64,000 bases of DNA from a virus (IMGVR_UViG_3300030202_003006:64001-128000); one strand, 5' to 3'; shown: positions 38,301 to 53,579, counted from the stretch's first letter. The notes: generated by a model not told the origin, from the letters alone. Numbers and translations: made by a program.

Positions 38301-38824
38301 GTGATGGTGCTAGAAGATGGATTCAATGGGAACCTATGTTATTTACAGCAGCTACACAAACTATTATGTCCGGTGTTGATTTAATAGAATGTTTAACAGA
38401 AGATTTAAGAGCCTCTTCACAACCAGTACCTTATTATATATGGAATTTAGACGGTGCACCTGGAACACCATTCGGTAGTGATTATAATGATTGGTCAGGA
38501 ACTTACGGAGACTATAGAAGAAAAACAGCTATTCCTATGAGTCCACTTGGGGCTATAAATTTAGGACCAGTATCTACGAATATATGGCCAGAACCTAACC
38601 CCCTAACTAGCGATTACTTCCAAGGTTCAAATGCAGGAACTATGGGTGTTAACAATAGTTTATTACAACCAGCTAATTACCCACCACTAACACCAACTAG
38701 TGCACCAACAATAAACATGACACAACCATTATTTTATTATTTTGGTTTAAGACCTGGACAAACATCTTACAATACGTTTTTAAGGTTATATGTCGATGAA
38801 GAATTAGCAGACGCGGTATTATAA
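35333..38824 (+). CDS. Structural protein with a carboxypeptidase-regulatory-like N-domain, a long hydrophobic segment and a Cys-rich region
   Basis: GVVVGRV...GIPNAKVSIF and TNESGDFMIYGVPTG; hydrophobic run at about 36854-37015. Confidence 0.6.
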   Translation: MPKSFRVRTEIGKEKNLTFELKQDFDLLEILSLSLTQQDVYSRMCSDFGVVVGRVISNGGFGIPNAKVSIFVPLDSEDETNPIIKQLYPYTQPYDKDEQGKRYNLLSSEENFDCHVPVGTFPKLRNVLSNQDVRYVYDKYYKFTVKTNESGDFMIYGVPTGDQNIVMDVDLSDIGCFSLLPEDFKQMGYSSTDFDGPKFKSDSSIDSLPQILNQTKSIDVRPFWGDEELCNASITRVDFDLQDSGFKLKPMSIFMGSTATDTDKDAVNFSCRPRRAQGNLCSLVSQPGLIDAIRYTPFFKQDSNAYTSTTSPGLAAGGTVPILERYYLEDGGRVIDSTGAFLVHLPMNLDHVITDEFGNLVKSQDPEKGVPTRGRYRFRIRPEQSAGTARNRRRGSYLVPNIREYNDDVGDSSDGNWTSIDPKSYAFSIEYSDYHPHAQTNLLPGALDYFYDMTFNRVYTVSQFHDHVKHNGRRQFLGVKEILPEEEQQCSTTAVHFPVNSAVRRAKFIIYLNNLLIDLMGIIFMAVSLIVGILSFIFGIILLPILLFLYALCAILILINDVISSLPWVSGPLDGLIAGLGCDCICVSGSGCFACGPGNVNCAYFGFPLGFVLFTLRQTKYPECEKCTCRNTANSEMQALANNFPCPGAPPTYDSSDCEGGFFSSLAQWGGNDCCGAQDEARVCCPDWYGFDSTTTVGGLGDVDGPAGGGCYVKVMCFNPACILANLSMTTFFQWARRQKIASALCNGVMNYFWENAWVSGFLYQFQFKMKLKYSVADDSYNADSKWCKKLVYIHPSEHVVYYRSTPFKWDSATNTGYFLGDEDGVRGGNSSSDKHSDGDMRRHILFPTTIVDMGSRNQCIQQICLDPNFAEECSVTDQIGHTSFQDFTELVSDIYNLKANYSLAALGSFFTRPENEIGGDVAQAIMQNCMVGVVGYESNMSTTGCVCLDDNGNSGINTGTTLGELMEYPYPGDGNSPFNDPYVQHGVYGDGARRWIQWEPMLFTAATQTIMSGVDLIECLTEDLRASSQPVPYYIWNLDGAPGTPFGSDYNDWSGTYGDYRRKTAIPMSPLGAINLGPVSTNIWPEPNPLTSDYFQGSNAGTMGVNNSLLQPANYPPLTPTSAPTINMTQPLFYYFGLRPGQTSYNTFLRLYVDEELADAVL

Positions 38825-40659
38825 TGAGTACAGATAAAAACATAAGAGCTCTTAGAGGTTCCGCGAGATTTGCGGGGTCAACAGATAAAGATGTTGGGTT
38901 ACAAGCTTTTTTGGAGTCAGACAAAAGAAATTTAATAGAAGGGGATAGAAATTTAGTTTTAAATCTACAAGACCAGTTTAATTTTGAAAGACAGTATTCT
39001 ACAACATATAGATTATACGGTAAAATAGATATGTTGTATCATAATGTAATTAGTGGTGAAACGACTAATGCAAACACCATAAAGAATATGTATTTTATAC
39101 CGGATTTTAGGGGTTGTCCAGATTGTCTATTATATCCTGGACCATTTTGTGGGCCACCATGTAGTGGGTTACCACCAGCAGTTACTTTTGACATGATACC
39201 TAATAGAAGGTATGGTCCGGGTGGTGGAGCTGGTATAGGACCATTTAATTTCGCTACTGCGTACCAAGATAATTGGGTACTATATACCTCTTATATTTAT
39301 TCCCATCAATCCGGACAAACAATGCAATTTCACATAGATTATACTGGTGGAACATCTGGTTTAGATTTTGTTGCAGGAGATGGAATCCCATTTACATTAG
39401 AAACAGTAGTGATTGATGGTAAAGACACTTTAAGGTTTAGAACTAGAGCACGTCACGGTATACAACCAGGTGAATATATAGAGATACAGTCCACAGCAAC
39501 AAGTTTCGGTGGAGCCAATTTAATTACCACCATCCCGTTAACCTATTCTTTAAATCTAGTGCCAACAACAAGATTTGAGACAATTTTTAAAATAGATTCC
39601 TTTGGTGATGGTACAACAAATTCAGAAGACTATGTTTTAAATGTGAATGTTAAAGGTATAGATAGCGGAAGTATACCTTCAAAATGTGTAGGTACCTTTA
39701 AAAGAATTATAAATATAGATAACATAGCCGAAACAAAATCACAATATTACGTACATCAACACAAATTAATAAGTAGGTCTAATGACTATACTTTAGATAG
39801 AACGGGATTCGAATTTGGTATTTACAATAGAAAGGGTAGAAATTTTAGTGATAAAAAAACACCTGACAGTATAGCAAAAACTGTTATTAAAGAAGAGTTT
39901 AAATCTTATGTGTATTGTTTTACACGAGATTTTGACGCGGAAAAATATTTTGATAATTGGAATAGACCTGTATCAGAATTTTATCTTACCATGCTACCAA
40001 CTAATAGAAATGCTATGTGGGACTATGAAGGTGATTCTGGGTTCGCCGCGGATTCTCCAGCTACCTATGGATGGAATTGGAATTTCCAACCTAACGGATT
40101 CCTAGACCCTTTTATCGATATAGATACTTTACCACACAACAAAGTAAATTTATTTCAAAGTACCCCCACAAATGGGGTAGACCCACTACCAACGAGTGGA
40201 GCTACATTTAGAGGTGCATTTGTAGAATGGAACCCTTATGAAATAAAAGAAAGAATAATTTCAGAGATAGGACATGCCTTAAAACTTAATCCAACGGTAT
40301 TAGTGGAAGGGGTTACCACCCAGGTCCCACCTGAAAAACATTCAATATACAAATATAAACCACATCACAGAATACTAATAAGGCCCTTCTCTAACACTAT
40401 AAATTATAGTGATAGTTTAGAAAATTCACCACAATATGCTAGATATTTAGTTAGTGAAGAAACTTTTAGATGGAGAAATCAATTACCGGTTGAAATGTAT
40501 GAGGATAATGGTTACGGTGTAAGTTATCCTTATTTAAATGACGCACATTACCCACATCTTAGTGTTGAGTTTAAACACATACCAGTAGGACCGATTTTAA
40601 ATAAAATAGAACCAATGTCAGCAATGACAATGTTAAATGAAATGATAGATGTCTGTTAA
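38824..40659 (+). CDS. Hypothetical structural (baseplate/fibre) protein
   Basis: 611 aa; TAATG coupling; RARHGIQPGEYIEI beta-barrel-like motif. Confidence 0.6.
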   Translation: MSTDKNIRALRGSARFAGSTDKDVGLQAFLESDKRNLIEGDRNLVLNLQDQFNFERQYSTTYRLYGKIDMLYHNVISGETTNANTIKNMYFIPDFRGCPDCLLYPGPFCGPPCSGLPPAVTFDMIPNRRYGPGGGAGIGPFNFATAYQDNWVLYTSYIYSHQSGQTMQFHIDYTGGTSGLDFVAGDGIPFTLETVVIDGKDTLRFRTRARHGIQPGEYIEIQSTATSFGGANLITTIPLTYSLNLVPTTRFETIFKIDSFGDGTTNSEDYVLNVNVKGIDSGSIPSKCVGTFKRIINIDNIAETKSQYYVHQHKLISRSNDYTLDRTGFEFGIYNRKGRNFSDKKTPDSIAKTVIKEEFKSYVYCFTRDFDAEKYFDNWNRPVSEFYLTMLPTNRNAMWDYEGDSGFAADSPATYGWNWNFQPNGFLDPFIDIDTLPHNKVNLFQSTPTNGVDPLPTSGATFRGAFVEWNPYEIKERIISEIGHALKLNPTVLVEGVTTQVPPEKHSIYKYKPHHRILIRPFSNTINYSDSLENSPQYARYLVSEETFRWRNQLPVEMYEDNGYGVSYPYLNDAHYPHLSVEFKHIPVGPILNKIEPMSAMTMLNEMIDVC

Positions 40660-41533
40660 TAGAATACAAATAAAAGCTTCACTAGGGGAAAAACAAATTA
40701 CTATCCCAATAGGACAAACCTTTGATGAGGTAGGTCGTGAACAATTAATACGTGATTATGAAGTAGTAGAACAACAAGATAATGTAAATATTATACAAGA
40801 TTATGAAACTACTAGATATTCTTTTAGTGGTGGTTCATTTATTCATTATGAATTTAAGTTTTATTCTGGTGGAACTTATTTTGATAAATTTAAACCACTA
40901 GGGTATAAAGACTACGAATTAGCTAAAAATAAAAAATCTTTTGTTAATAGTTTTTTTAAGTTTGATTATTGGGACTCACCATTAAGAAAAGAACAAAAAT
41001 TAATGTTTTCTATAGTTATTCCAGCTAACAATTGTGATAAAGATTACCCAGCAATGGTTAATATTGATGAAGACCCCTTAGAATACTTCTCACAACTAGC
41101 TTCTGGTGATTTAGCTCCTGGACAATTACCAGAATATGATATATACCACCCATACATTACGGTAGGTCCCACTCAAGTTAGAAATGAGGGTTACTATATA
41201 CAATGGTTAAAGGAAAGAAATTTGTTAGAAATAGATACATTTTATATGTCGTGTAATTTTTTTAATGCGGGTACAGGACAATCAACACGAATGATAAATA
41301 AAAATCCTTTAATTCCCTCAGGTAGTTGGGACCCAACAACCGACTTAGGAACTTATGATTATCCAGAATGGTTCTACTACCAAGTTAAATTAACCATAAG
41401 AGAAGGTACAGAAACACCAAAGTATTACTATAATGTATATAACTATAGTAATATGAATTTACAATACGGTATACAGGGTAGCTCAATAGGTACCCTAACC
41501 CCGATAATTTTTTATGAATACATTGAACCATAA
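40649..41533 (+). CDS. Hypothetical structural protein
   Basis: 294 aa, aromatic-rich, in the baseplate operon. Confidence 0.6.
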   Translation: MSVNRIQIKASLGEKQITIPIGQTFDEVGREQLIRDYEVVEQQDNVNIIQDYETTRYSFSGGSFIHYEFKFYSGGTYFDKFKPLGYKDYELAKNKKSFVNSFFKFDYWDSPLRKEQKLMFSIVIPANNCDKDYPAMVNIDEDPLEYFSQLASGDLAPGQLPEYDIYHPYITVGPTQVRNEGYYIQWLKERNLLEIDTFYMSCNFFNAGTGQSTRMINKNPLIPSGSWDPTTDLGTYDYPEWFYYQVKLTIREGTETPKYYYNVYNYSNMNLQYGIQGSSIGTLTPIIFYEYIEP

Positions 41534-44500
41534 TGGAAGTAAATAAATATGTAATAAGAAGGTCCAACCCAGACGTGAGTTGGTCGATACCATGTTCAGG
41601 AGCTACTAATATGTGGCCTATTAATTATAGTACTAATTGTTCCGGTTCTACAATGTATAGTTCTACAGCTTCACAAGTACTTAATGCGTTGAATGGAAAT
41701 ATGAATAATTTCCCAATGGAGTTAAGTGATTGTAGCCCTACAAACCCTTGTGTAATATTATGGGACGTGAACCCACAACCTATTGGTACTGTAGGTAGAT
41801 GTCAAGTCAATGACTTTGCATACATAGAATATAAAGGTTTTTGGTTAACTACACCAGGGCCAGTAACACAACAAGTAAGTTATTCAGAACTTATAGGGTA
41901 TTATGAAAGTAATAATTTTGATTTATCAACAAGTTTACAATCACAATCATCTTCTTACGCACAAATGAATAGAGCATGGTGTCTATGTGACAATCCACTA
42001 GGTGAATTCCTATATGATATTACATTTTCTTTACACCAAGATTTCAATGATATCGGTCATTATTCCCTATGGGATGGAAATATTGACCAAAAAGAAATAT
42101 TCCAAAACTTTGTTGTTAGTGCAACTACAAATCCGGGGGGTATATACGACGGGTATTATATACAAGTTTGGAATACCACAGATTTTGGATTCTACAAAAC
42201 ATTCCAAGACTCAGCTTATGTTATAGATTGGGGTGACGGTACACAATCTACATTACAGTATCCTACTCTTATAGGAAACCATCAATACGCAGCAACAGCA
42301 GTACCAACATATAAACAAATAAAAATAACATATAACGCTCCTTGGGGACCAGTTAGTACTACCAAAACTATAGTAGTACCTAATTTAGATTTATTGGGGA
42401 TAGTATCCCAACCCCCAGGACCATCACCTTTATTGGGTGGTATGCCACCTCAACAAGTAAATTTAACAGGACCTACTAATACAGGCGGTCTACCTGTAGG
42501 TTCATCAACCGCGGGACATGCTGTATATGGTAATCCAGGTACGATGAGTTACATGCCTTTAGATTCAGCAGTAGACATTAATGAATTTAGTGGGTTATCA
42601 CCAATGCCATGTTTTACAGTGACTGGTATTACTGAAAGTATACTAGGTAGTTTCCAAACCTATTCAAATACCACTAATGCACCTGGATTATTAGAACCAG
42701 GTATGAACATTAGTAATACACCAGGACAATATGTAGTACCTATAGGTGGTGATGTTATCGACCCCGTAAGTAATGAACCCACACCAGGGTTAATGGGAGA
42801 AATAACAGCTGCGAACGGAGGTTATACAGCATACACAGTTTATGCACCTACTGTAGCTGGTAATATAACCCCTATAGAATACTACGATTTTGTTAACGGT
42901 ATAACAATTTTTGTGGCGGAAAGTTGTGGGTTACCAGGTAATACTTTTCTAGATAGTGCCGACTGTTTTCAATGTGAAATAGATGATTGTACTTATTGTG
43001 AAACCAAAGACGAATACTTTAATAGGGAGAGTGGTGTATTGGGTGGACCAACAGCAATTTCTGTAGGGACTAATTACGCAAATTTAGTTCCACCACAACA
43101 ATGGAACTCTTTTACAAATTATAATATTGGTGATATAGTTTTTGACCGAACTTATAATTTATGTTGTTGTTATATGGTAGTAAAAGATATTATACAATCT
43201 GGTGCTACTCCATCAGATTGGGCGGGTGTACCCCCAGCTATAACTGATGATGGTATGTGGTATCCAGGATTAGATATTAATGGTAATACTTTACCTGGTC
43301 ATCATATTTATGAACCATGTTGTAGACAACCAGATTGTGATTGTGGAACATGTCCACCAGGAACAGCAACACCATGTAATGACCCAACTAATCCTTGGAA
43401 TTCTTATCCGTTAACATTACCTGTTGGACCAGCAGGACCGTGGGTAAATGGAAATGTTTATAATGTGGGGGAATTTACCGAAGGTCCAAATGGTGGTTGT
43501 TATAGAGCTTTATCTACGGGTGCTCACCCATCACCAGTTACTGGTGCAGGAGCATCCACCTATTGGGATTATGTAACCTGTGCAAGTTGGGCATGTCCGA
43601 TAGACCCAACCGCTACTGGATGTCAGATGTATACGGGGTTAACCCAAGGAATACCAGGAGCTTTTCCATTTTATAGTGATTGTGATACATTTTTTGCGGC
43701 AGGAGAATGTTTTGATACACAGTGGATTTGTGAAGACCAATATAATTGTAGTGGTTGTATAGAGATTAATTCTTCTCATAGTGGTTATACATTACCTATC
43801 GCACCACCAGTATTTTCAGCACAGGCAGAGTGTGAAGCTTGGTGTGACCCACCACTATATTCTTGTGCAACCCCAACAACTAGTCCATGTTGTCTGTTTA
43901 TGAGTTGTGATATACTACCAAACCTATATACCGCAGCTATGAATGATTATTTCACTGCTTTTGGAGGTGGAGCACCAATAACAATACCTAATCTAAATTC
44001 TTTAGATTTATATTTAGATTCTTCCATTTGTGAAAGTGCATGTTGTGAAACACTAGGATACCAATGGACTTGTACCTATGGATGCCAAGAATTTCCTGGT
44101 TTAACACAAAGTTTAGCTGATTGTGTTGCTACATCCCCAGCTGGTACTTTTGGTTTATCAGCAGAGTGTGGGTATGATTGTGTAAATCCTTGTGTACCAT
44201 ATGTTCCGGGTGTTTCTAGTCCTTGTATGTCATGTACTGATTTAGGTATATTTAACACCCCTGGTTGTGCACCATTCCAAACTGACGCTCAATGTGCTCA
44301 AAGTTGTACGGCTGATACATCTTGTTACAGATGTGATTGTTATGATACACAACCATGTACTTTAGAATATCCATGTACAACACCTTCTGCCACGGTACCT
44401 GGTTGTACAGGACCTAATCCAGCACTTGGAACTTATGCAACTGCATCCGCATGTACAGCATCTTGTATTTGTGACGCAGGTTGGGATTGTTACATTATAA

Positions 44501-47500
44501 ATAACCCATATGACCCAAATTACGGTCAACCAGACGGTCAAGGATGTCGATATGTACAAGATTTAAACTTATTAGGTACCGGATTTACATTTTCATCTAA
44601 TGGACCATTTTCAGCATTAACAGATTGTTGTTTAGATACTGGTTGTTGTACTGTAAATTGTGATGAAATTGATGCACTATATTATGACCCTGCTATAAAT
44701 GGCTACACCCCAGCCAATTATATTGGGCCACCAAATCCTCCACCACCATTTGGTACTGGTACTTATCCGTGTTATTATGAAACCGTTTCAAACACTAGTA
44801 TAGGTTGTTATTCAGGCCAATCTGGTGGACCATATAATGCTGGATTTAGTTTACCATTTTGTACTATGGCAGACTGTTTAAATTGGATAACTGCTGATGC
44901 TCCATGTCCTCCAGCTGAAGACCCATTGGGTAACCCAACAGGTTTTACATGTTGTGAAGAAGAAATAGAAATTACTTGTGATTGTGCGTGTAGTGGTACT
45001 ACAGCGGCACTAATGATATCCCCACTCCCTTTAAATCATACTGGTGCTTTTGTTGCGAGTGGAACGGAGGGGTATACTATAGGGGATACCGTTACGTATG
45101 TAGATATAGATAGTCCGGTGTGTTGTTATGTTTGTAATTGTCCGGATAATGGTGGTGTTTTAGATTGTAATTCCTACACTCCAGATATGCCTTTACCTCC
45201 AGGACAAATAAATTGTTGGGAATCTTGTGGGTCTACCGAAGGAAGTGCACCGTCAGGGTGTACACCTTGTTTAGGTTATTCCGCAACACAGGATACATAT
45301 CTATGTACAACTAATAATGGTTGTGTTGCTTCTGACGATATAATATTAAATCCAGGAGGTATGGGGGTACCATGTGTTATAAACCCACTGTTCACTCAAA
45401 CACAACAAAATTGTTACACATCTTCTACCTGTGATTACGAATGTCAAGCAGGTTGTTATTGTGATGACCAAGGAACCCCTAACCCATTAGATGATATAAC
45501 TGGTTGTGTTATGTTACAAGATGTCTTGAACGGTTTAACCCCTTTCGCTTCAACCAATTACTTTGCATTATCTTTAGATAGTTGTAACACAGCAATAACT
45601 TTAGGTATGGATTGTTGTACGGGTGAAACTTTTTACTGTGACTATATAGATAATGGGTCAGTTATTAATTGTGATTCTACAGGTACATTAGGTACAGGAT
45701 GTCAATCTATATATGATGGACAACCAGGATATCCAGGACCTTACACATCTTTAACCGACTGTCAACAAGCCTGTACTTGGGAATGTGATAGTAACGGGTG
45801 GCAACAATGTCAGTTCGTTTTAAATTCAACAGCACCAGTTACTTTCCCTAGTGCGAATGCTTGTTACGTGGCTAATACACAACCAACTAATTGTTATTGT
45901 CAACCATCAGCAACCACATCTTGGTATTGTGATAATTCAGGTCAATCCGGTCTATTACCTGGCACAAGTAATTGTGTAACCAGTACCGTAGTTGCTGGGT
46001 ATACTACCGCTCAACAACAACAAGTTTACGGTCAAGGACAAATAACTTATTTTGCTGGTGGAACAGGGTTCTTAAACCAAACATTTTGTGAAGAATTTTG
46101 TAGATATAAATGTTATGATACAAATGTAGGGTTAACCCCACCTAATACTCCTTGTGAATGTAGTTTAGATTGGGGTAATAACGGTGGAACAACAACTTCA
46201 TTTTATGATTGTACCGGGTCTACTTTTTCTAATCTAGGATATTATCCTTGTTGTCCGACAGGAACTACTATATTTTGTTGTGACCCAATATTAGGTTGTC
46301 TAGGACCTTATACTCCTGGTAATCAACCAGCGGGTTGTCTAGGTACTTTTTCAAGTGATGCACAATGTAATACTGAATGTAATTTTGCTTGTGGAGATTG
46401 TTTTGGTACAGATAATTGTTTCTGTGAATTTTATTTTGGCCCACTAGTATGTACCGGTGAAACCATATATAATACTATGGCTGATTGTCAAGCTAATTAT
46501 ACTCTAGGACAATTTAGTTCTACCGGATGTTGTGATTGTTATGATTGTGCTATTAATGGGGGTATAACTTGGACATATACACCATCAGATAATGCTACTA
46601 CATGGATGTCTAATAGTACGTCAGTACCATCACCTCAAAACGGTATTTTAGGTGACCCATGGTCTTCCGGCCAAGTGGGCGTACCTAATGGTGGGTATTT
46701 TGCTGGAGATACGGTTTTATACACTAATAGTGATGGTGTTACTTGTTGTTATGTTTTTGTTAATAAATGGAATACTTCATGGATTGATTTTACCATAGAC
46801 CCACACACTTATTACACTTCTTACGTTAATGCAGTTGCTAATAATGACTTTTATTTAGCATATTACTCACAAGTATGGATTGCGTGTGACCCTAGTTGTG
46901 CACCACCTAGTATAATCACTTGGGATTGTTTCCCAGGTACAGCAACTGATACTTGTCTAAATCTAACTAATTTCTTCCAAAATAGTGTAGGGAACCCAGT
47001 CCCTTATTTTGGTGACGCATTAGATGCTGTTCTAACAGGTTGGGGTAACCCCAACGTAACCAACTCAGGTTTTCAAGCAGCAGTATTCCAAATGGGTCAA
47101 TATGTAACGGAACTAATGGCTCCATTTGCACCACAAACACCAGGACACTGTCAAGGTCCTAATGGAGGTTACTTACATAAAGTTACAGGTATAAATGTAT
47201 CCGGTGTAGCTACAAACCCATCAGCTCCAGCGTATTTACCTACAGTCGCTGCGGGAACACCATTTAGTTCTTGGAAAGGATTGATAGACGCTTTAAATGC
47301 AGACAACTGGATGTTAGGTAACGGTACATCACCAATTTGGAATGTTACAGACCCTCTGGTAGTATACAATGATTTTTGTATCTATAATGAAGGTGATTGT
47401 TTTGGTGCCAAATCAATAGCGTGTATTTGTGGTGGTAAACCATGTGACTGTCAACCAGTATATGGTCCAGGTGGTCAGTACGCAACATCAGCTTCGTGTT

Positions 47501-48897
47501 ATAGTGCATGTTGTGAAACATCCTATAGATGTCATGGTACACTATGTCAATGTATAGATTGTGGTGGACCACAATGGCAAACCGGTTGTGCATATGCAAA
47601 TTTAGGGCAGTGTCAAAATGACCCACTTACTTGTTGTAGTAGTGCTACTACTGAATGGAGTTGTTATAATAATGGAGTTACGTGTGAATGTATACAGGCT
47701 CCAGGACCATATTCGTCTTTAACTCACTGTCAAACAGCTAACAATTGTTGTAAACCACCAGACCCAACTGACTGTACCGATTGTCACGCTTTTTCAGCTT
47801 TAAATGATTGTGGACAATACTTTGTACTAAAAGACATAAACCAATGGATGTTAACTGCATACGGTGGGTTGTATTCAGCATTAACAACACCTCTAGGTGT
47901 AAATCTTCACTGTGACCCTAATTATTATTTATATGACCCAGCCACTCAATGTTGTTGGATATGTGTGATGGACAAAGACGGTACTCTAGCTGGAAATAGA
48001 AACTTCCTAGGAGAAGACCCAAACCAAAGTGCGTGTTGTACAATATGGAAGGGTCAGTTATGGGGTAGTAGTCTCGCGATGGGTAATGGTTGTTGGTGCC
48101 AAGCGGACCAAAAATTTTACGATTCGGGGTGGATACCTTGTGGTGGGTCAGGACAGAATTGTTTACCACCAAACTACGAAGAAACTTGGGATTGTGATAT
48201 GCAAACACAAACGTGTTATGACCCCTTAAATGGTTCAGGTCAATACCATGCTGGAAACGGAGGATACTTGGCTTGTGTTCAAAACTGTATATCTCATGGT
48301 AACTGTAAAGATTGTGAAAATGCATTATCACCATTTTTAGACGCACCAGGAACAATTACTATGATGGGACCATGGGACCCAGCACAATCTTATAGTCATA
48401 ATGATTGTGTTACTATACAACACCATTTTGGGCCGATGCCATTACATGATGACCCAGAATGTTGTTATTGTTGTGTTAGAAAATCAGGAGGACCAGACCC
48501 TCAAGACGACGATGATGTTTTACATGGGTTGACACATAATTTAGATAACTATTATCGTCTTTTAACTCAACAAAGTAACAAATCATTAAAAAGTGTGGAT
48601 GCCTCTTTTGACGATGTTGTGTTATCGGACCCAGACGACCCTTTTAATTGTCCTATAGGGTTTGACCCAAGTCAAGGAGGTAGTATGAATGGTTCACAAT
48701 GGTTACCTTGTGGGATACAACCAAATGGTGACCCATGTGTGAAAAAGTGTAAAAAATGTTGCTGTAAAGGTAATCAACAAATACAATTAGCATCAACTAC
48801 TAATCCTTGTGTATGTCCACAAGGTTGGAATGACTGTAGCTGTAACATTATTATTGGACCTGGTGGCCCTGTAGGAATTGAACCAAGTGATGGATAA
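41533..48897 (+). CDS. Giant Cys/Pro/Gly/Thr-rich modular virion (fibre/decoration) protein
   Basis: 2454 aa; PKD-like IDWGDG motif; CBM5/12-like modules; many WxC...F/YxxxxxCxxxC repeats. Confidence 0.7.
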   Translation: MEVNKYVIRRSNPDVSWSIPCSGATNMWPINYSTNCSGSTMYSSTASQVLNALNGNMNNFPMELSDCSPTNPCVILWDVNPQPIGTVGRCQVNDFAYIEYKGFWLTTPGPVTQQVSYSELIGYYESNNFDLSTSLQSQSSSYAQMNRAWCLCDNPLGEFLYDITFSLHQDFNDIGHYSLWDGNIDQKEIFQNFVVSATTNPGGIYDGYYIQVWNTTDFGFYKTFQDSAYVIDWGDGTQSTLQYPTLIGNHQYAATAVPTYKQIKITYNAPWGPVSTTKTIVVPNLDLLGIVSQPPGPSPLLGGMPPQQVNLTGPTNTGGLPVGSSTAGHAVYGNPGTMSYMPLDSAVDINEFSGLSPMPCFTVTGITESILGSFQTYSNTTNAPGLLEPGMNISNTPGQYVVPIGGDVIDPVSNEPTPGLMGEITAANGGYTAYTVYAPTVAGNITPIEYYDFVNGITIFVAESCGLPGNTFLDSADCFQCEIDDCTYCETKDEYFNRESGVLGGPTAISVGTNYANLVPPQQWNSFTNYNIGDIVFDRTYNLCCCYMVVKDIIQSGATPSDWAGVPPAITDDGMWYPGLDINGNTLPGHHIYEPCCRQPDCDCGTCPPGTATPCNDPTNPWNSYPLTLPVGPAGPWVNGNVYNVGEFTEGPNGGCYRALSTGAHPSPVTGAGASTYWDYVTCASWACPIDPTATGCQMYTGLTQGIPGAFPFYSDCDTFFAAGECFDTQWICEDQYNCSGCIEINSSHSGYTLPIAPPVFSAQAECEAWCDPPLYSCATPTTSPCCLFMSCDILPNLYTAAMNDYFTAFGGGAPITIPNLNSLDLYLDSSICESACCETLGYQWTCTYGCQEFPGLTQSLADCVATSPAGTFGLSAECGYDCVNPCVPYVPGVSSPCMSCTDLGIFNTPGCAPFQTDAQCAQSCTADTSCYRCDCYDTQPCTLEYPCTTPSATVPGCTGPNPALGTYATASACTASCICDAGWDCYIINNPYDPNYGQPDGQGCRYVQDLNLLGTGFTFSSNGPFSALTDCCLDTGCCTVNCDEIDALYYDPAINGYTPANYIGPPNPPPPFGTGTYPCYYETVSNTSIGCYSGQSGGPYNAGFSLPFCTMADCLNWITADAPCPPAEDPLGNPTGFTCCEEEIEITCDCACSGTTAALMISPLPLNHTGAFVASGTEGYTIGDTVTYVDIDSPVCCYVCNCPDNGGVLDCNSYTPDMPLPPGQINCWESCGSTEGSAPSGCTPCLGYSATQDTYLCTTNNGCVASDDIILNPGGMGVPCVINPLFTQTQQNCYTSSTCDYECQAGCYCDDQGTPNPLDDITGCVMLQDVLNGLTPFASTNYFALSLDSCNTAITLGMDCCTGETFYCDYIDNGSVINCDSTGTLGTGCQSIYDGQPGYPGPYTSLTDCQQACTWECDSNGWQQCQFVLNSTAPVTFPSANACYVANTQPTNCYCQPSATTSWYCDNSGQSGLLPGTSNCVTSTVVAGYTTAQQQQVYGQGQITYFAGGTGFLNQTFCEEFCRYKCYDTNVGLTPPNTPCECSLDWGNNGGTTTSFYDCTGSTFSNLGYYPCCPTGTTIFCCDPILGCLGPYTPGNQPAGCLGTFSSDAQCNTECNFACGDCFGTDNCFCEFYFGPLVCTGETIYNTMADCQANYTLGQFSSTGCCDCYDCAINGGITWTYTPSDNATTWMSNSTSVPSPQNGILGDPWSSGQVGVPNGGYFAGDTVLYTNSDGVTCCYVFVNKWNTSWIDFTIDPHTYYTSYVNAVANNDFYLAYYSQVWIACDPSCAPPSIITWDCFPGTATDTCLNLTNFFQNSVGNPVPYFGDALDAVLTGWGNPNVTNSGFQAAVFQMGQYVTELMAPFAPQTPGHCQGPNGGYLHKVTGINVSGVATNPSAPAYLPTVAAGTPFSSWKGLIDALNADNWMLGNGTSPIWNVTDPLVVYNDFCIYNEGDCFGAKSIACICGGKPCDCQPVYGPGGQYATSASCYSACCETSYRCHGTLCQCIDCGGPQWQTGCAYANLGQCQNDPLTCCSSATTEWSCYNNGVTCECIQAPGPYSSLTHCQTANNCCKPPDPTDCTDCHAFSALNDCGQYFVLKDINQWMLTAYGGLYSALTTPLGVNLHCDPNYYLYDPATQCCWICVMDKDGTLAGNRNFLGEDPNQSACCTIWKGQLWGSSLAMGNGCWCQADQKFYDSGWIPCGGSGQNCLPPNYEETWDCDMQTQTCYDPLNGSGQYHAGNGGYLACVQNCISHGNCKDCENALSPFLDAPGTITMMGPWDPAQSYSHNDCVTIQHHFGPMPLHDDPECCYCCVRKSGGPDPQDDDDVLHGLTHNLDNYYRLLTQQSNKSLKSVDASFDDVVLSDPDDPFNCPIGFDPSQGGSMNGSQWLPCGIQPNGDPCVKKCKKCCCKGNQQIQLASTTNPCVCPQGWNDCSCNIIIGPGGPVGIEPSDG

Positions 48898-48961: not shown

Positions 48962-49183
48962 ATGGGATTAGAAAAAGTTTATACTAGTGGGTGTATACCA
49001 CCATTAACCAAAGAAGAGGTTTTAATGAATGTATGTGAAAGACCAGAAACTAGGTCTAATATATTTATTGAAAGGGGTAAAGTTACAGTTTTTGAAACAA
49101 CACAAAGATTAGGGCAAATACCTAACTTGGGGGAGTTAACATTACACGGATATGGGTTTTATAAAATTAATAAACAAGCTTAA
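48962..49183 (+). CDS. Small structural protein (73 aa)
   Basis: TKEEVLMNV...SNIFIERGK...RLGQ...GYGFYKI. Confidence 0.7.
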   Translation: MGLEKVYTSGCIPPLTKEEVLMNVCERPETRSNIFIERGKVTVFETTQRLGQIPNLGELTLHGYGFYKINKQA

Positions 49184-49186
49184 AAT

Positions 49187-50113
49187 ATGGCATTAGGAGC
49201 ATACGGAATAAAAAGACCATCAGATGTACTACCTGATGATGTGGAAATTATAGTTCATGGGCAACCAACTAGAGACGCTACATCACAATTTACATTAACC
49301 ACGATTAATCCAGCAAGTAGTGTATTAACACCACATTATCATAATGCACAAACCAATGGTGCTGCTGGTGTGGAAATTTTAGGGGGTTTATATGATTTAA
49401 AATTACCATCTTCTATCTTTGCTAATAAAGGTATATATACTGTCTACATAAGACCAGTAGAGATTAGAACACAAATATTAGACTGTGGTATACTATCATC
49501 ACTACCAAACGTAAAAGGTCTTGTGTTTGACTTAAATAGTGTACCTTCACAATTTAGAAGTAGGTTTAGACCTAATTCATTAGTTGGGTATAGAATAGAA
49601 TATTTACAACAATCTGGTGAAAAAATACATAATTTTTTCAGAATAGTGACATCTAATTTTTATTGTGAGGCAGTGTCAGCAAAATTATCTAACCCATCCC
49701 AAAAATCACCTAGATACATATATACAAATACAGAAACTAATTTAATTTTTTGTACTTTAACACCTACTAGTGCACCTTCTAATAACCCTAACGCTATACC
49801 ATTTATAGGTCAACCAGGACAAAATGTTATAGTTACAAATACCTTCTTTAACCCTATAGTACTAGATATTGAAATGGTAGACCATGATTTCGAAACCCTT
49901 GCATTTGCACTATACGGTAATCAGACTAAATCAATTGATGATGGAATTTATACTCTATATGACTTCAATACCCCTAATCCTAATATTTACGCACAATATG
50001 ACTTATTTGAGGTTAGAGACAACTTCAATAATCAATTATTTGAAGTTAAAAGAAATAGAGGTAACAATATAGATTTTAGTAAAAATTTCACCACTATAAC
50101 CAGTAATCTATAA
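49187..50113 (+). CDS. Hypothetical structural protein
   Basis: 308 aa, in the late operon. Confidence 0.65.
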   Translation: MALGAYGIKRPSDVLPDDVEIIVHGQPTRDATSQFTLTTINPASSVLTPHYHNAQTNGAAGVEILGGLYDLKLPSSIFANKGIYTVYIRPVEIRTQILDCGILSSLPNVKGLVFDLNSVPSQFRSRFRPNSLVGYRIEYLQQSGEKIHNFFRIVTSNFYCEAVSAKLSNPSQKSPRYIYTNTETNLIFCTLTPTSAPSNNPNAIPFIGQPGQNVIVTNTFFNPIVLDIEMVDHDFETLAFALYGNQTKSIDDGIYTLYDFNTPNPNIYAQYDLFEVRDNFNNQLFEVKRNRGNNIDFSKNFTTITSNL

Positions 50114-50119
50114 TTTATT

Positions 50120-53100
50120 ATGGCTAGTAATAGATTTAGATATCCACCAGCACCAGGACACGGAGGTGATACGTTTAGTGATAATCTAGTAGGTAATCAA
50201 TACACAGACGGGTCATCTTTGATGACTTTGGGTACTTTTAGTGTAAGTGAAGAATATAGTAGAACTGTTGCGACACAAACAAAAATTGGTGGTTTTTCCA
50301 GTCCTATTACGTTAGATAGTTTAAGTGAAGCTGACCTAACACTAAATAAAAATTTAAATAGTAACGATTTAAGGGTTTATGTTAATAACGATGTTAATGA
50401 CCTATCTAGTTTTGTTCTTTATGGTTCCGCTAAAAAGAGATTAAATGTTGCGGTTGAAAATGTTATTAATAATTTTCCAGGAGCAATATATGTCGATGGA
50501 ATAGACATATACCAGAACAGCGGTAATACCACAGCATATAATATCCAATATAACCAAACTACAAAAGAAACAACATTTAGGGTTAATGTAAACTACCTAT
50601 CCAATCCATTTAATATTGAGTTTACAACTAATGGTAATTTATTAGATGGTCATTTATCACCAGAACAAGTTTTAAATAATTTAGAAGAATTTGGTAATAC
50701 TGCTAATACCATGGTAAAAATAGCAGAAAATAAAGTTTCATCTTTACGAAATCTAACCAAAGAATTTAAAAAATACTCGTTAACTTTTTCAGGTGGTGTC
50801 GGACAAGTAGAATATGATATTGTAAGTTTACAACCTCAAACCACCACTACTAACTATATAGAAATAACTGTAAAAGGAAAACCGTTTAGTATATTAAACA
50901 CAACGACTAATAAGTTTTATCTTAAACCAAACGCAACTGAAACTGAAATAGCTTTTAAAAATTTTGAAGGGGTAGAAGCTTTTCTGATGAATAGAGATGT
51001 AGCACCTATATATACAGCGACTTTTAATCTAATAAAAGAAACTATTAATGGTAGTACTTACATACAAAAGGTAAAAAAGATGTGGCCTTTACAGGACGCA
51101 ATAAATATAGACACCACCACCCCAAACTATAATATTTATATAAATTCTTTAGCGGATTTAGGTGATGAATTAGACAAACAAAAAACTAATTTGGTTTCTA
51201 GATTTTTAACTACGCCAGCCCTCAAAGAATTTGATACCTCTGACCAAAAAGTAGAAAAAACGTTACAAGTTTATGGTAGAAGTTTTGATGATATTAAATT
51301 ATTTGTTGATGGTATAGCTTATATGACTAATGTTAGTTATGATGGAATTAAAAATATACCTAATAAGTTAATAAAAAACTTTGCTCAAACCTTAGGGTGG
51401 TCAACCCCTAATACACTATCTAATGATAAATTTATGGATAGTATTCTAGGTGTCTCAAAACCTATATATTCAGGTAGTAGTATAAGTAAGACCCCAGCAG
51501 AATTAGATATAGAACTATATAGACGTATATTAATGAATACGGCTTACCTATTTAAATCTAAAGGTAGTCGTAAATCAATAGAATTTTTACTTTCTTTATT
51601 AGGAGCACCTAAAGCTTTGGTGGAGTTTAATGAGTATGTGGTAATAGCTGACGCTAAACTTAATATGGAGAAGTTTGATAGGAATTGGGAACCAATTGAA
51701 GGTGGTAGTTATACTACAGGGAGTATTAAATATAGTGTAATTACGGGGCAATTCTATGTTAGTACCGCTACCACAACACACTCATTTACTAGAAGCGATT
51801 ATCCTGTAAGTTCAATAGGGTACCCCCAAGTACCTAGAGAAAGTAATAACTACTTTTTCCAAAGAGGAGCTGGTTGGTTTGAAAGAACTAGTGAACATAA
51901 GTCAGAGTTAAAAGTTAAAACAGATTTCATAGAAGATTCTACTGGAGCGACCACAACACCAACATCAGTATTGACAGGTTGTAACCCAACCATAATAACA
52001 GAATTTGCTCCTTTTACATGGGGTGGATTTTGGACAATGGGTAAATTTTCTAACGACTTTAAAGCACCGTATTTAGATAGATTTTGGAGATTCCCACATA
52101 TGCATTATGGTTTTGGTTTAAGAAGGATTATAGACGATAAAAAATCTTGGGTAAAGATAGGGGGTGGTAACTTACCTGAACTATTGTTTGATGATACACC
52201 CACATATCGTACCCCACATTCGATAGCAACCGCACCAGTAGGATTCGACCCAAATATATTCCAAGAGAGAGTAGCTTCAGAAGATTGTTACCAACTAAGA
52301 GAGAGAAAAAAATTATTATTAGATAAATTTTTACAATTAACTGCGGCAGGAACCCACCCATTATGGAGAAAAATGTTAATTAGTAGGATTAAGTATATAG
52401 AAAAGATAGAAAAAAGAAGAGATTGTGCACCTGTAGACACTAGAAGTTTTAATTATAAAGATAGAACATCCCACTATCAGACTACTGATGAAAGATTAGT
52501 TATAAATGTTAAAAATGTAGACTTAAATTTAAATGTGGGTCAAGCTTTAGTTTATGATATTTGGGAACAATCTGTTAATTACGATTGTTTGTTTAGTGGT
52601 GGTACACTACCATATCCATACCCATCTACTGGTGGTAGATGGGATTCTACGAATCCACAAATTAACGCTAAAACAATACCTTTTAAATCATTCTTACAAC
52701 ATTTTTGGAAATTTTTTATCGATACTAAAAATAGAATGACCATTAATGATGGTAAAACAGGTGGGTACCCAACCCTACAAAAAATGTATATTGATTATTT
52801 ACAAAATAGTTGTGGTGAAAACAATAAATACACCTACAATAAAATGATTGGGTACGCACAATCAATGGGAGATTATTGGATAAGAATTGTGGAACAAATG
52901 GTTCCAGCAACAACATTATGGACTAGTGGTGTTAAGGTTGAAAATTCTGTATTCCATAGAGATAAATTTGTTTATAGGTGTTTTAGTTTATCGGGTACAG
53001 CAACCCCTTCCGCTACTACAGCATCTATTAATACAGCTTTAAGTGGATTTAGTGCTACTCCCGCACCTCAGTATAGGAATGGTGTGTTTTCTTTCGCACC

Positions 53101-53569
53101 CCCATCAAACCCAACAAATGGTACTACCTACTATAATAATATTCGTAGTGGTGCAACAGCAAACCCACTATCAACTTACGCCAATTCATATAATATAAAT
53201 AATCAAGGTAAAAAGTTTGGTAGTGAGTTAATTAGTATAGAAACAAATAAGTTAGCCAACGGGTACCAAACCAATCAGGATAAATTTACGGCACCTCCAA
53301 CCTTTACAAAACAAGGAAGTACCGATAACCTTTTATGTGTGTACGGTTTTAAAGATTTTGGTAATGAAGGACTAGAATGGGTCTTAAATTACAACTTGGG
53401 AACAAATAACCCACAACCAACATTGACCAACACTAACACTAATACTTCTTCACCACAAACAAGTGCTGTAGGTGGAGGTGGCGGTGGTGCTACAACCACC
53501 ACTACAGGTGGTGGTGGTGGAATGTCTTCTGGTGGTGGAAGCGTCGGAGGTGGCGGAGGTGGGTATTAA
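50120..53569 (+). CDS. Baseplate wedge / tail protein I (gp7)-like protein with a Gly-rich C-terminal tail
   Basis: FAQTLGW and AYLFKSKGSRKSIEFLLSLLG (KG[ST] motif of the P2 gpI / T4 gp7 family). Confidence 0.6.
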   Translation: MASNRFRYPPAPGHGGDTFSDNLVGNQYTDGSSLMTLGTFSVSEEYSRTVATQTKIGGFSSPITLDSLSEADLTLNKNLNSNDLRVYVNNDVNDLSSFVLYGSAKKRLNVAVENVINNFPGAIYVDGIDIYQNSGNTTAYNIQYNQTTKETTFRVNVNYLSNPFNIEFTTNGNLLDGHLSPEQVLNNLEEFGNTANTMVKIAENKVSSLRNLTKEFKKYSLTFSGGVGQVEYDIVSLQPQTTTTNYIEITVKGKPFSILNTTTNKFYLKPNATETEIAFKNFEGVEAFLMNRDVAPIYTATFNLIKETINGSTYIQKVKKMWPLQDAINIDTTTPNYNIYINSLADLGDELDKQKTNLVSRFLTTPALKEFDTSDQKVEKTLQVYGRSFDDIKLFVDGIAYMTNVSYDGIKNIPNKLIKNFAQTLGWSTPNTLSNDKFMDSILGVSKPIYSGSSISKTPAELDIELYRRILMNTAYLFKSKGSRKSIEFLLSLLGAPKALVEFNEYVVIADAKLNMEKFDRNWEPIEGGSYTTGSIKYSVITGQFYVSTATTTHSFTRSDYPVSSIGYPQVPRESNNYFFQRGAGWFERTSEHKSELKVKTDFIEDSTGATTTPTSVLTGCNPTIITEFAPFTWGGFWTMGKFSNDFKAPYLDRFWRFPHMHYGFGLRRIIDDKKSWVKIGGGNLPELLFDDTPTYRTPHSIATAPVGFDPNIFQERVASEDCYQLRERKKLLLDKFLQLTAAGTHPLWRKMLISRIKYIEKIEKRRDCAPVDTRSFNYKDRTSHYQTTDERLVINVKNVDLNLNVGQALVYDIWEQSVNYDCLFSGGTLPYPYPSTGGRWDSTNPQINAKTIPFKSFLQHFWKFFIDTKNRMTINDGKTGGYPTLQKMYIDYLQNSCGENNKYTYNKMIGYAQSMGDYWIRIVEQMVPATTLWTSGVKVENSVFHRDKFVYRCFSLSGTATPSATTASINTALSGFSATPAPQYRNGVFSFAPPSNPTNGTTYYNNIRSGATANPLSTYANSYNINNQGKKFGSELISIETNKLANGYQTNQDKFTAPPTFTKQGSTDNLLCVYGFKDFGNEGLEWVLNYNLGTNNPQPTLTNTNTNTSSPQTSAVGGGGGGATTTTTGGGGGMSSGGGSVGGGGGGY
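53470..53563 (+). repeat. Low-complexity GGN codon run encoding poly-Gly
   Basis: GGGGGGATTTTTGGGGGMSSGGGSVGGGGGG. Confidence 0.8.
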
Positions 53570-53579
53570 AATATAGATT

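What the first reader, a model, noticed from the sequence alone, without database searches (positions are those of the whole stretch)
41533..48897. 2454-aa Cys-rich modular virion protein resembling an extracellular eukaryotic protein
Seen: after a PKD-like N-terminal part (IDWGDG), roughly one residue in ten is Cys by eye. About 15 or more diverged modules follow the pattern [WYF]xC-x(n)-C-x(n)-G-x-[FY]-xxxxx-CxxxC, e.g. GPYTSLTDCQQAC, FSSDAQCNTEC, GQYATSASCYSAC, PFQTDAQCAQSC. Their ends echo the Kunitz FxSxxxCxxxC motif. The DNA is not tandemly repeated, so the expansion is old. Established: phage virions assemble in a reducing cytoplasm, and their structural proteins are normally Cys-poor. 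Inference: a new class of long fibre that is either disulfide-locked after lysis or metal-stapled. With the metallothionein-like peptide, the FKBP PPIase (this protein is also very Pro-rich) and other Cys-rich tail proteins, it may form a dedicated folding/metallation system.
Basis: partly seen in the sequence, partly recalled or inferred. Interest (0 to 1): 0.78.

Follow-up and report, generated by a model that had tools for sequence, protein, structure and literature searches.

The report
Giant disulfide-bead phage baseplate adhesin
An uncultured ocean jumbo phage encodes, among its baseplate genes, a real 2,454-residue protein that strings sugar-binding-type domains between about twenty small four-cysteine beads of a type not found in the domain libraries searched, and the same beads occur in surface proteins secreted by marine Flavobacteriales, the likely hosts.

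Summary
Window 41533-48897(+) is one 2,454-aa ORF with 8.1% Cys (9.6% after aa 480) and only 1.8% Lys+Arg; neighbouring genes have 0-3% Cys. About 50 marine-metagenome homologues share this composition. Cys is by far the best-conserved residue.

Synteny with a gp6/Baseplate_J wedge gene is strict across related IMG/VR contigs. The gene is the fastest-evolving in the block, with conservation falling from the N- to the C-terminus.

Anatomy: an N-terminal domain, a PKD fold, five distant CBM5/12-like modules, and about 20 beta-hairpin-plus-helix Cys modules. A profile built only from the phage modules finds tandem ~30-aa repeats in T9SS-sorted secreted proteins of marine Flavobacteriales MAGs. 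The reverse profile finds the phage protein. No Pfam, NCBIfam, PHROG or PDB sequence model matches the module.

Extra Cys are gained and lost in pairs, and CxxC is not enriched. Both favour disulfides over metal sites. The Kunitz resemblance is weak and at fold level only. I found no evidence for a dedicated folding or metallation system.

The best reading is a long baseplate adhesin locked by disulfides after lysis. This scan met what looks like the same family before on other DNA (e1-5862980), and analogous cyanophage giants (P-SS2 gp084). Virion presence and the redox state of the Cys are untested.

The parts
41533..48897 (+). Giant Cys-rich ORF, 2,454 aa, with no signal peptide visible by eye in the N-terminal sequence
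   Evidence: full-length homologues
41635..41982 (+). N-terminal alpha/beta domain (aa 35-150), confidently modelled, fold not assigned; probable baseplate-docking end
   Evidence: AF2 pLDDT about 90; conserved; no fold hit reported because the PKD domain filled the lists
42088..42402 (+). PKD/Ig-like beta-sandwich (aa 186-290) carrying IDWGDG
42550..42942 (+). Conserved beta-rich core (aa 340-470). Together with the PKD domain it is the part shared with shorter or differently built phage proteins (L040-L042)
42964..42999 (+). C-x2-C-x4-C-x2-C cluster (aa 478-489); three of its Cys invariant and one nearly so, the only zinc-knuckle-like spacing that is family-wide
   Evidence: poorly modelled
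43084..43212 (+). CBM5/12-like module 1 (aa 518-560)
43423..43602 (+). CBM5/12-like module 2 (aa 631-690), the one that was modelled
   Evidence: VIA Z 5.0-5.8, rmsd 1.2-2.7 A over 44-57 residues, to chitin-binding domains and the Pam1 tailspike receptor-binding domain; Foldseek
43717..44664 (+). Cys-module array I (aa 729-1044, about 6 modules, each a beta-hairpin plus a C-terminal CxxxC helix)
45028..45162 (+). CBM5/12-like module 3 (aa 1166-1210)
45292..46551 (+). Cys-module array II (aa 1254-1673, about 8 modules, including the canonical ones at aa 1366-1415, 1463-1524 and 1580-1617)
46642..46818 (+). CBM5/12-like module 4 (aa 1704-1762)
46960..47376 (+). Cys-poor, poorly conserved island (aa 1810-1948), fold not examined
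47410..48291 (+). Cys-module array III (aa 1960-2253). The module at aa 2219-2252 is the closest to the bacterial T9SS-protein repeat
48346..48495 (+). CBM5/12-like module 5 (aa 2272-2321)
48649..48843 (+). C-terminal Cys cluster (aa 2373-2437), variable among relatives
33422..35263 (+). Baseplate wedge gene (gp6 / Baseplate_J-like) that heads the conserved block
35333..41533 (+). Three unassigned genes (1,163, 611 and 294 aa) always found between the wedge gene and the giant gene. The last one is translationally coupled to the giant gene
48962..57746 (+). Conserved downstream genes (73, 308, 1,149 and 1,388 aa). The 1,388-aa protein carries one canonical Cys module at its aa 1286-1313 (window 57435-57518)

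Best explanation
The gene encodes a very long baseplate-attached adhesin (fibre) of an uncultured marine jumbo myovirus of about 320 kb. The host is probably a marine member of the Flavobacteriales. The conserved N-terminal third (alpha/beta domain, PKD domain, beta-rich core) docks on the baseplate periphery. The rest is a beads-on-a-string shaft. In it, five CBM5/12-like glycan-binding-type modules are spaced by about 20 small modules, each a beta-hairpin followed by a helix. Each small module is pinned by two, sometimes three, disulfides between the hairpin Cys and a CxxxC pair on the helix. This module type is the same one that marine Flavobacteriales use as tandem stalk repeats in T9SS-secreted surface proteins. 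The phage protein shows no signal peptide by eye, so it is made in the cytoplasm. It most likely acquires its roughly 90 disulfides when the particle meets oxic seawater at or after lysis. That would give a protease-resistant, very acidic, nearly Lys/Arg-free filament. The filament would then make multivalent contacts with polysaccharide on the host surface or on particles. Shown: gene reality, composition, Cys conservation, synteny, domain folds, and the shared module. Inferred: virion location, disulfide state, timing of oxidation, ligand, host.
For: The gene is real and conserved: 49 homologues of 1,650-3,000 aa, all with 6-9% Cys and 1-2.5% K+R. Mean column identity is 0.83 for Cys against 0.50 for Trp and below 0.4 for every other residue; 150 of 199 Cys are at least 80% conserved.

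Tail context: the order RNR, o149, Baseplate_J, 1,163 aa, 611 aa, 294 aa, GIANT, 73 aa, 308 aa, 1,149 aa, 1,388 aa is seen wherever the fetched locus extends far enough, in about 38 related loci. The giant gene is the most diverged (31-44% identity against 45-90% for its neighbours). Non-Cys identity falls from 0.45 at the N-terminus to 0.15 at the C-terminus. L040-L042 reuse only the PKD core in another architecture.

Folds: PKD. CBM5/12 at Z 5.0-5.8, with phage tailspike and fibre domains among the hits. Weak sequence support for CBM5/12. Five internal copies linked by hhalign. Cys modules modelled as a hairpin plus a helix at pLDDT 70-85.

Module identity: a profile built only from phage modules finds 41 proteins outside the giant family at E <= 1e-3 among 1.84 billion. 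They carry 1-9 matched stretches (mostly 3-9), which in the sequences inspected are tandem ~30-aa repeats. Thirteen have a Por_Secre_tail; others have M43 peptidase, Big_9, FG-GAP or cadherin-like domains. Related genes lie in marine Flavobacteriales/Bacteroidota MAGs in 25 of 26 loci. The reverse profile scores the giant protein 19.4 bits against a decoy maximum of 5.6.

Disulfide rather than metal: non-invariant Cys are lost or gained as pairs (597/602, 786/838, 901/912, 936/980, 1203/1228, 1541/1574, 1582/1602, 2187/2189). CxxC is not enriched (17 against 17.8 expected) whereas CxxxC is (26 against 18). His is 1.0%. The partner domains of the module in bacteria are all extracellular.

Precedent: disulfide-linked fibres and baseplates in Pam3 and Milano.
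Against: There is no proteomic or structural evidence that the protein is in the virion. The redox state of the Cys is unknown. AF2 confidence is only moderate (mean pLDDT 66 and 61). No phage sulfhydryl oxidase or DsbA was found, but the record is only about 48% complete. The total Cys count is odd (199). The C-x2-C-x4-C-x2-C cluster could bind zinc. CBM5/12 similarity is below Pfam thresholds and no ligand is known. Only 5-12 of the roughly 20 modules are statistically tied to one family. Oligomeric state is unknown, and classical fibres are trimers. The host assignment rests on a shared module and on GC content, not on CRISPR spacer or prophage evidence.
Confidence: 0.6

Rival explanations
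1. The modules are metal-stapled. The Cys quartets coordinate Zn (or another metal) in the reducing cytoplasm, and the fibre stays metallated in the virion, perhaps supplied by the 9-Cys micro-peptide encoded upstream.
For: The protein is made in the cytoplasm, with no signal peptide visible by eye. There are four Cys per canonical module. A C-x2-C-x4-C-x2-C cluster at aa 478-489 is invariant or nearly so. No oxidase gene was found.
Against: CxxC knuckles are not enriched. His is scarce. Extra Cys vary in pairs, not quartets. CxxxC on a helix paired with hairpin Cys is disulfide-type geometry. The same module is used in T9SS-secreted extracellular proteins. The weak fold hits are to disulfide-bonded Kunitz domains.
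Confidence: 0.1
2. The protein is not a receptor-binding fibre. It is a peripheral decoration or 'whisker' that tethers particles to chitinous or polysaccharide marine particles and gels where hosts live, and it is dispensable for adsorption to the cell itself.
For: It has multiple CBM5/12-like and PKD domains, both typical of chitin/polysaccharide-binding proteins. It has a beads-on-a-string build rather than a recognisable trimeric fibre fold. Four further large genes downstream could be the true fibres.
Against: It is the fastest-evolving gene in the block, with an N-to-C conservation gradient, as expected under host-range selection. CBM5/12-like domains sit in bona fide receptor-binding tailspikes and fibres (7eea, 9b45, 8ck1).
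Confidence: 0.18
3. The protein is not part of the particle. It is a phage-encoded mimic of host T9SS surface proteins, released at lysis or acting inside or on the infected cell (for example as a decoy, in superinfection exclusion, or in matrix binding).
For: The module is shared with host-type secreted proteins. There is no virion evidence. Its composition is unlike the other structural proteins in the window.
Against: It is embedded in, and translationally coupled within, a strictly conserved baseplate/tail block on one strand. It has no visible signal peptide and no T9SS C-terminal domain. The analogous P-SS2 gp084 is a proven virion protein.
Confidence: 0.07

Closest known systems
Tandem ~30-aa four-Cys repeats (W-D-C ... 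C-x-D-P-G-x-G-x-G-x-Y-x-S-L-x-x-C-Q-x-x-C) in T9SS-sorted secreted proteins of marine Flavobacteriales MAGs (e.g. P0086-P0090, P0094); not matched by any Pfam or NCBIfam model
   Same: Same module by reciprocal profile search. Same four-Cys pattern, aromatic-x-Cys start and [YF]-x-S ... C-x3-C end. Tandem head-to-tail arrangement. Almost no Lys or Arg.
   Different: The bacterial proteins have a signal peptide by eye and a Por_Secre_tail, are 200-850 aa, and use near-identical compact repeats as a stalk. The phage protein has neither sorting signal, is 2,454 aa, and its modules are old, diverged, loop-expanded and interleaved with CBM5/12-like domains.
Phage receptor-binding fibres and tailspikes that carry CBM5/12-like and PKD/Ig-like domains (cyanophage Pam1 tailspike 7eea; Pa193 fibre 9b45; Carin-1 8ck1)
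   Same: Gene position next to baseplate wedge genes. Conserved proximal end and variable distal end. A small CBM5/12-type fold (Z 4.3-5.8).
   Different: Those proteins are Cys-poor trimers with beta-helix or coiled shafts. Here the shaft is a chain of Cys-knotted beads, and the oligomeric state is unknown.
Disulfide-bonded phage tails: Pam3 (fibres disulfide-linked to the wedge, PMC9942802) and Milano (sheath/baseplate disulfide network, PMC10811340)
   Same: They show that tailed-phage particles assembled in the cytoplasm can carry functional disulfides.
   Different: Those have a few inter-subunit bonds. Milano structural proteins are 2.1% Cys against 8.1% here, where the bonds would be intradomain and number about 90.
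Cyanophage P-SS2 gp084 (2,612 aa as translated here; listed as 2,613 in the paper; virion protein by mass spectrometry, 43 peptides; Sullivan et al. 2009, PMC2784084)
   Same: A giant (about 2,600 aa), acidic, very Cys-rich (10.8%) protein in the tail module of a marine phage.
   Different: No detectable homology: best BLASTP E 0.88, and the module profile finds nothing. It has a different module type, much more Asp+Glu (19.7%), and belongs to a siphovirus of Prochlorococcus.
Kunitz/BPTI domain (PF00014)
   Same: A beta-hairpin followed by a C-terminal helix whose CxxxC pair is pinned to earlier Cys. The F-x-S-x3-C-x3-C ending is shared. Weak structural hits at Z 2.4-3.2.
   Different: Four Cys rather than six, and different spacing. 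No Pfam or PDB sequence match. No sign of a protease-binding loop.

Membership tests
Kunitz/BPTI (PF00014) | Six Cys with the spacing C-x8-C-x15-C-x7-C-x12-C-x3-C (spacing recalled from my own knowledge) | tested here: not met
   Canonical modules have four invariant Cys and a different spacing.
Kunitz/BPTI (PF00014) | Sequence match to the family model or to solved Kunitz chains | tested here: not met
   No Pfam hit at E <= 1. The module profile finds no PDB sequence at E <= 10.
Kunitz/BPTI (PF00014) | Kunitz fold | tested here: inconclusive
   VIA Z 2.4-3.2, rmsd 2.3-3.5 A over 41-46 residues, for two modules of a model with pLDDT 70-85.
CBM5/12 chitin-binding module (PF02839) | Match to the Pfam model above its threshold | tested here: not met
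   No hit for the whole protein. Thirteen of 94 isolated segments hit weakly (best E 0.005), yet PF02839 is by far the most frequent family.
CBM5/12 chitin-binding module (PF02839) | Small three-stranded CBM5/12 fold | tested here: met
   aa 633-683: Z 5.0-5.8, rmsd 1.2-2.7 A over 44-57 residues, with a hit list dominated by chitin-binding domains. The segment profile hits the CBM12 of 3wx7 at E 0.0022.
CBM5/12 chitin-binding module (PF02839) | Binding of chitin or another polysaccharide through exposed aromatic residues | not testable with these tools
   The W ... Y-x-x-G-D-x-V signature is conserved, but no ligand data exist.
PKD domain | PKD beta-sandwich fold with a WGDG-type motif | tested here: met
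   Foldseek prob 1.00 to several PKD domains. VIA Z 7.8 to PrtV PKD1. IDWGDG is present. No Pfam hit.
Phage tail fibre / baseplate receptor-binding protein | Encoded in the baseplate/tail-fibre block, with a conserved proximal end and a variable distal end | tested here: met
Phage tail fibre / baseplate receptor-binding protein | Physical presence in the virion and a role in adsorption | not testable with these tools
   There is no cultured relative: no tblastn hit in 50,697 phage records.
Flavobacteriales T9SS-cargo four-Cys repeat (no model in the libraries searched) | Reciprocal profile similarity of the module | tested here: met
   Forward E 1e-16 to 1e-4 for 41 proteins. Reverse 19.4 bits against a decoy maximum of 5.6.
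T9SS cargo protein | N-terminal signal peptide and a C-terminal Por_Secre_tail sorting domain | tested here: not met
   No hydrophobic leader by eye. No PF18962 or TIGR04183 hit.
P-SS2 gp084-type giant Cys-rich cyanophage protein | Sequence or module homology | tested here: not met
   Best BLASTP E 0.88; module HMM best domain 2.0 bits.

The most novel reading that the evidence does not exclude
A clade of marine jumbo phages has taken a small disulfide-knotted stalk module from the secreted (T9SS) surface proteins of its Flavobacteriales hosts and expanded it into a 2,400-3,000-residue baseplate filament made in the cytoplasm. This would mean about 90 disulfides per chain form without any secretory pathway, either spontaneously on release into seawater or through an unrecognised oxidative folding route in the infected cell. 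The module would be a new domain family shared by phage and host, and possibly a site of homotypic phage-host surface recognition.
Probability: 0.4. Interest if true: 0.75.

Novelty: new variant of a known kind. Interest (0 to 1): 0.6.

Why it matters
If the reading is right, tailed phages can build virion parts from extracellular-type disulfide-rich domains on a scale roughly four to nine times the Cys content of the phage structural proteins compared here (2.1% in Milano, 0.9% in T4). That makes the question of where and when phage disulfides form concrete and testable.

The work also defines a ~30-45-aa four-Cys domain that has no model in Pfam, NCBIfam, PHROGs or among PDB sequences. The domain is shared between an abundant group of ocean jumbo phages and marine Flavobacteriales. 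This gives a host lead for about 40 uncultured viral contigs, and a compact, nearly Lys/Arg-free scaffold that may be of practical interest.

The interest is limited by three things. There is no cultured phage. Disulfide-bonded phage tails and a giant Cys-rich cyanophage virion protein are already on record. This scan has already reported what looks like the same family.

Tried and rejected
Pfam, PHROGs and NCBIfam on the whole protein gave no hit.

tblastn against 50,697 phage records gave nothing.

A PDB sequence search with the family profile and with the module profile gave nothing.

The 1,163-aa and 611-aa neighbours gave nothing against PDB sequences or against PHROGs and Pfam, so I could not name the proteins the giant docks to.

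The ESM Atlas search with the N-terminal 165 aa gave no usable hit.

The fold of the N-terminal domain (aa 35-150) stayed unassigned, because PKD and Ig-like hits filled both lists.

A first local MAFFT run on 49 full-length proteins timed out and was replaced by the alignment tool.

Homology to P-SS2 gp084 was rejected.

Erv1/ALR, DsbA and thioredoxin were not found in the window's own record. One glutaredoxin was found there, and one thioredoxin in the most complete relative; I take these as ordinary nucleotide-metabolism partners. The Erv search has no positive control among the 14 control genomes, so that absence is weak.

A radical-SAM CXXX-repeat reading (raised by earlier scan notes) was not pursued. 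The Cys are not at a fixed four-residue period, and I saw no radical-SAM gene in the block.

A recent tandem-duplication origin was rejected: there are no DNA repeats.


Full report
**1. Is it there?**

Window 41533-48897(+) is a single ORF of 2,454 codons. Its ATG overlaps the stop of the preceding 294-codon gene as TAATG. The product has 199 Cys (8.1%; 9.6% after aa 480), 8.4% Pro, 10.1% Gly and only 1.8% Lys+Arg. The other 32 ORFs of the window that I tabulated have 0-3.0% Cys and 5-18% Lys+Arg. For scale, the Milano paper gives 0.9% Cys for T4 proteins and 2.1% for Milano structural proteins, which its authors already call high. The DNA has no tandem or long direct repeats.

**2. Is it a real, conserved gene?**

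A search of 5.8 billion proteins found 49 relatives of 1,650-3,000 aa at 31-42% identity. None carries a functional name, and several carry Tara tags. All have 6-9% Cys and 1-2.5% Lys+Arg. In a 28-sequence alignment the mean column identity is 0.83 for Cys, 0.50 for Trp and below 0.4 for every other residue. Of the 199 Cys, 150 are at least 80% conserved. The Cys are therefore structural.

**3. Context**

The window lies in a 155.9-kb IMG/VR viral record estimated to be 48% complete. A 210.6-kb relative is estimated at 66%. The genome is therefore probably about 320 kb. The window holds a tail sheath gene and a gp6/Baseplate_J wedge gene at 33422-35263.

In about 38 related viral contigs the gene order is invariant wherever the fetched locus extends far enough: RNR, 149 aa, wedge, 1,163 aa, 611 aa, 294 aa, GIANT, 73 aa, 308 aa, 1,149 aa, 1,388 aa, 1,199 aa. 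The giant gene is the most diverged member, at 31-44% identity against 45-90% for its neighbours. Within the protein, non-Cys identity falls from 0.45 at the N-terminus to 0.15 at the C-terminus. Some relatives share only the first third. Three contigs reuse just the PKD core inside a differently built 1,253-aa protein. A conserved proximal end with a fast-evolving, exchangeable distal end is the usual signature of a baseplate-anchored host-recognition protein. No cultured phage has a homologue.

**4. Anatomy**

AlphaFold2 on family sub-alignments gave moderate models, with mean pLDDT 61 and 66.

- **N-terminal domain.** aa 35-150 form a confident alpha/beta domain whose fold I could not assign.
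- **PKD domain.** aa 186-290 are a PKD sandwich (Foldseek prob 1.00; VIA Z 7.8).
- **CBM5/12-like modules.** aa 633-683 have the small CBM5/12 fold (Z 5.0-5.8, rmsd 1.2-2.7 A over 44-57 residues). The hit list is made of chitin-binding domains together with phage tailspike and fibre domains such as the Pam1 receptor-binding domain. Four more segments carry the same W ... Y-x-x-G-D-x-V ... C-C-Y signature. hhalign ties them together with probabilities of 96, 77, 50 and 34%. At sequence level the relation to CBM5/12 is real but sub-threshold. Thirteen of 94 segments hit PF02839 weakly, and it is the top family. The segment profile hits the CBM12 of Vibrio chitin-oligosaccharide deacetylase at E 0.0022.
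- **Cys modules.** The rest is made of short modules. Each begins with aromatic-x-Cys on a beta-strand, has a second strand with a Cys, then a loop of variable length, often with P-G. Each ends with [YF]-x-[ST]-x3-C-x3-C on a helix. Modules abut each other directly, as in C-x3-C-x-W-x-C.

**5. More than chance?**

The strict end motif occurs 8 times against 1.0 +/- 1.0 in composition-matched shuffles (0 of 2,000). The whole start-to-end pattern occurs 10 times against 0.3. In a leave-one-out test, 10 of 12 hand-picked modules score above 95% of their own shuffles. Profile-profile comparison of orthologous sub-alignments links the module at aa 1367 to those at 731 (95%), 1464 (94%), 1580 (73%) and 2219 (60%). 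Unrelated control segments score 0. Five modules are therefore firmly one family and about a dozen are probably so. My count of about 18-20 rests on pattern only.

**6. The module has relatives, and they are bacterial and secreted**

I built a 42-position profile from 88 instances of five orthologous modules, all taken from the phage family, and ran it against 1.84 billion representative proteins. It returned 49 proteins at E <= 1e-3. Forty-one of them are not giant-family members. They are short proteins with 1-9 matched stretches, mostly 3-9. The eight whose sequences I read carry near-identical tandem copies of a compact ~30-aa repeat, W-D-C-x(3-5)-C-x-D-P-G-x-G-x-G-x-Y-x-S-L-x-x-C-Q-x-x-C.

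Several of those I read begin with a signal-peptide-like leader, judged by eye. Thirteen of the 41 end with a Por_Secre_tail (T9SS type A sorting domain) above cut-off. Other partner domains are an M43 peptidase, Big_9, FG-GAP, cadherin-like and invasin domains, all extracellular. A genome scan with one of these proteins found 26 loci. Twenty-five are in marine Flavobacteriales or Bacteroidota MAGs and one is in a Neomarinimicrobiota MAG.

The reverse test also works. An HMM built from 36 bacterial repeats scores the phage protein 19.4 bits. Two hundred shuffles give a mean of -27.8 and a maximum of 5.6. The best match is at aa 2219-2252. The same HMM picks out one canonical module near the C-terminus of the downstream 1,388-aa protein.

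No Pfam, NCBIfam, PHROG or PDB sequence model matches the repeat.

**7. Disulfide or metal?**

I could not inspect coordinates, so this point is indirect. Four lines favour disulfides.

- The same module is used in proteins routed through the Sec and T9SS pathway to the cell surface.
- Cys that are not invariant appear and disappear in pairs, by substitution and in different subsets of sequences. Examples are 597/602, 786/838, 901/912, 936/980, 1203/1228, 1541/1574, 1582/1602 and 2187/2189. This is what a disulfide predicts. A four-ligand metal site predicts otherwise.
- CxxC is not enriched (17 against 17.8), CxxxC is (26 against 18), and His is 1.0%.
- The only recurrent small-protein fold hits for two modules are Kunitz domains, which are disulfide-bonded, though at only Z 2.4-3.2.

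Three points weigh against. The protein shows no signal peptide by eye. No Erv or DsbA gene was found in this half-genome or in five relatives. The C-x2-C-x4-C-x2-C cluster at aa 478-489 could be a zinc site. Published structures show that cytoplasmically assembled phages can carry functional disulfides (Pam3; Milano). I therefore take oxidation at or after lysis as the simplest route.

**8. The proposed 'folding/metallation system'**

The FKBP gene (window 27266-27700) is conserved in 5 of 5 related records. It lies in the replication block, and nothing ties it to the giant gene. The glutaredoxin and thioredoxin I found are what large phages with ribonucleotide reductase usually carry (from my own knowledge). 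The 9-Cys micro-gene was handled by another agent and I did not test a link.

**9. Comparison and novelty**

The protein most likely works like a phage receptor-binding fibre or adhesin. It is not a member of any library family. Kunitz membership fails on Cys number, spacing and sequence. CBM5/12 and PKD are met at fold level only.

P-SS2 gp084 is a virion protein proven by mass spectrometry. It is 2,612 aa as I translated it (2,613 in the paper) and 10.8% Cys, and it is analogous but not homologous.

This scan has already reported a 2,902-aa, 247-Cys protein 'among baseplate genes of an uncultured marine jumbo phage' (e1-5862980). Relatives here of 2,894-2,918 aa with 246-247 Cys suggest it is the same family, though I did not compare the sequences.

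**10. Verdict**

This is a new variant of a known kind (a phage baseplate adhesin) built from a domain family that the libraries searched do not describe. Interest is 0.6.

Noticed in passing
window 48962-49183 (+); L040:11775-14021: The 73-aa gene just after the giant gene is 70-87% identical across relatives, far more conserved than its neighbours. In L040 the same sequence forms the C-terminal ~70 residues of a 748-aa Cys-rich protein, so it exists in both split and fused forms.
   Followed up: partly
window 57435-57518 (+), inside the 1,388-aa ORF 53580-57746: There is one canonical compact four-Cys module (Y-S-C-x4-C ... Y-S-S-L-x-S-C-x3-C) near the C-terminus of another large tail-region protein. 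The HMM built from bacterial repeats detected it at 13.6 bits.
   Followed up: partly
L040:8003-11764: A 1,253-aa relative carries the PKD core in the middle of the protein and several copies of a different short repeat, C-x-D-P-x-A-x-N-Y. That repeat also appears in P0092 and in the neighbouring 748-aa ORF.
   Followed up: no
L071:8001-14058: A phage-like contig (ribosomal protein S21, ClpP, glutaredoxin, many small ORFs) encodes a 670-aa protein with nine compact four-Cys modules and no signal peptide. Next to it is a 1,326-aa MAM-domain protein with a T9SS Por_Secre_tail sorting domain, so a T9SS sorting signal sits on an apparently viral contig.
   Followed up: no
window 42964-42999 (+), aa 478-489 of the giant protein: The C-x2-C-x4-C-x2-C cluster, with three Cys invariant and one nearly so, is the one place with zinc-knuckle-type spacing. 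It sits between the conserved core and the first CBM-like module and was poorly modelled.
   Followed up: no
window 27266-27700 (+): The FKBP-type PPIase gene (144 aa) is conserved at a matching position in five of five related viral records. It lies in the replication block next to a 5'-3' exonuclease.
   Followed up: partly
whole giant-protein family (P0003-P0050): Lys+Arg is only 1.0-2.8% in every family member, and the bacterial T9SS repeats also look nearly free of Lys and Arg by eye. This could reflect resistance to trypsin-like proteases or avoidance of non-specific sticking. It remains unexplained.
   Followed up: no
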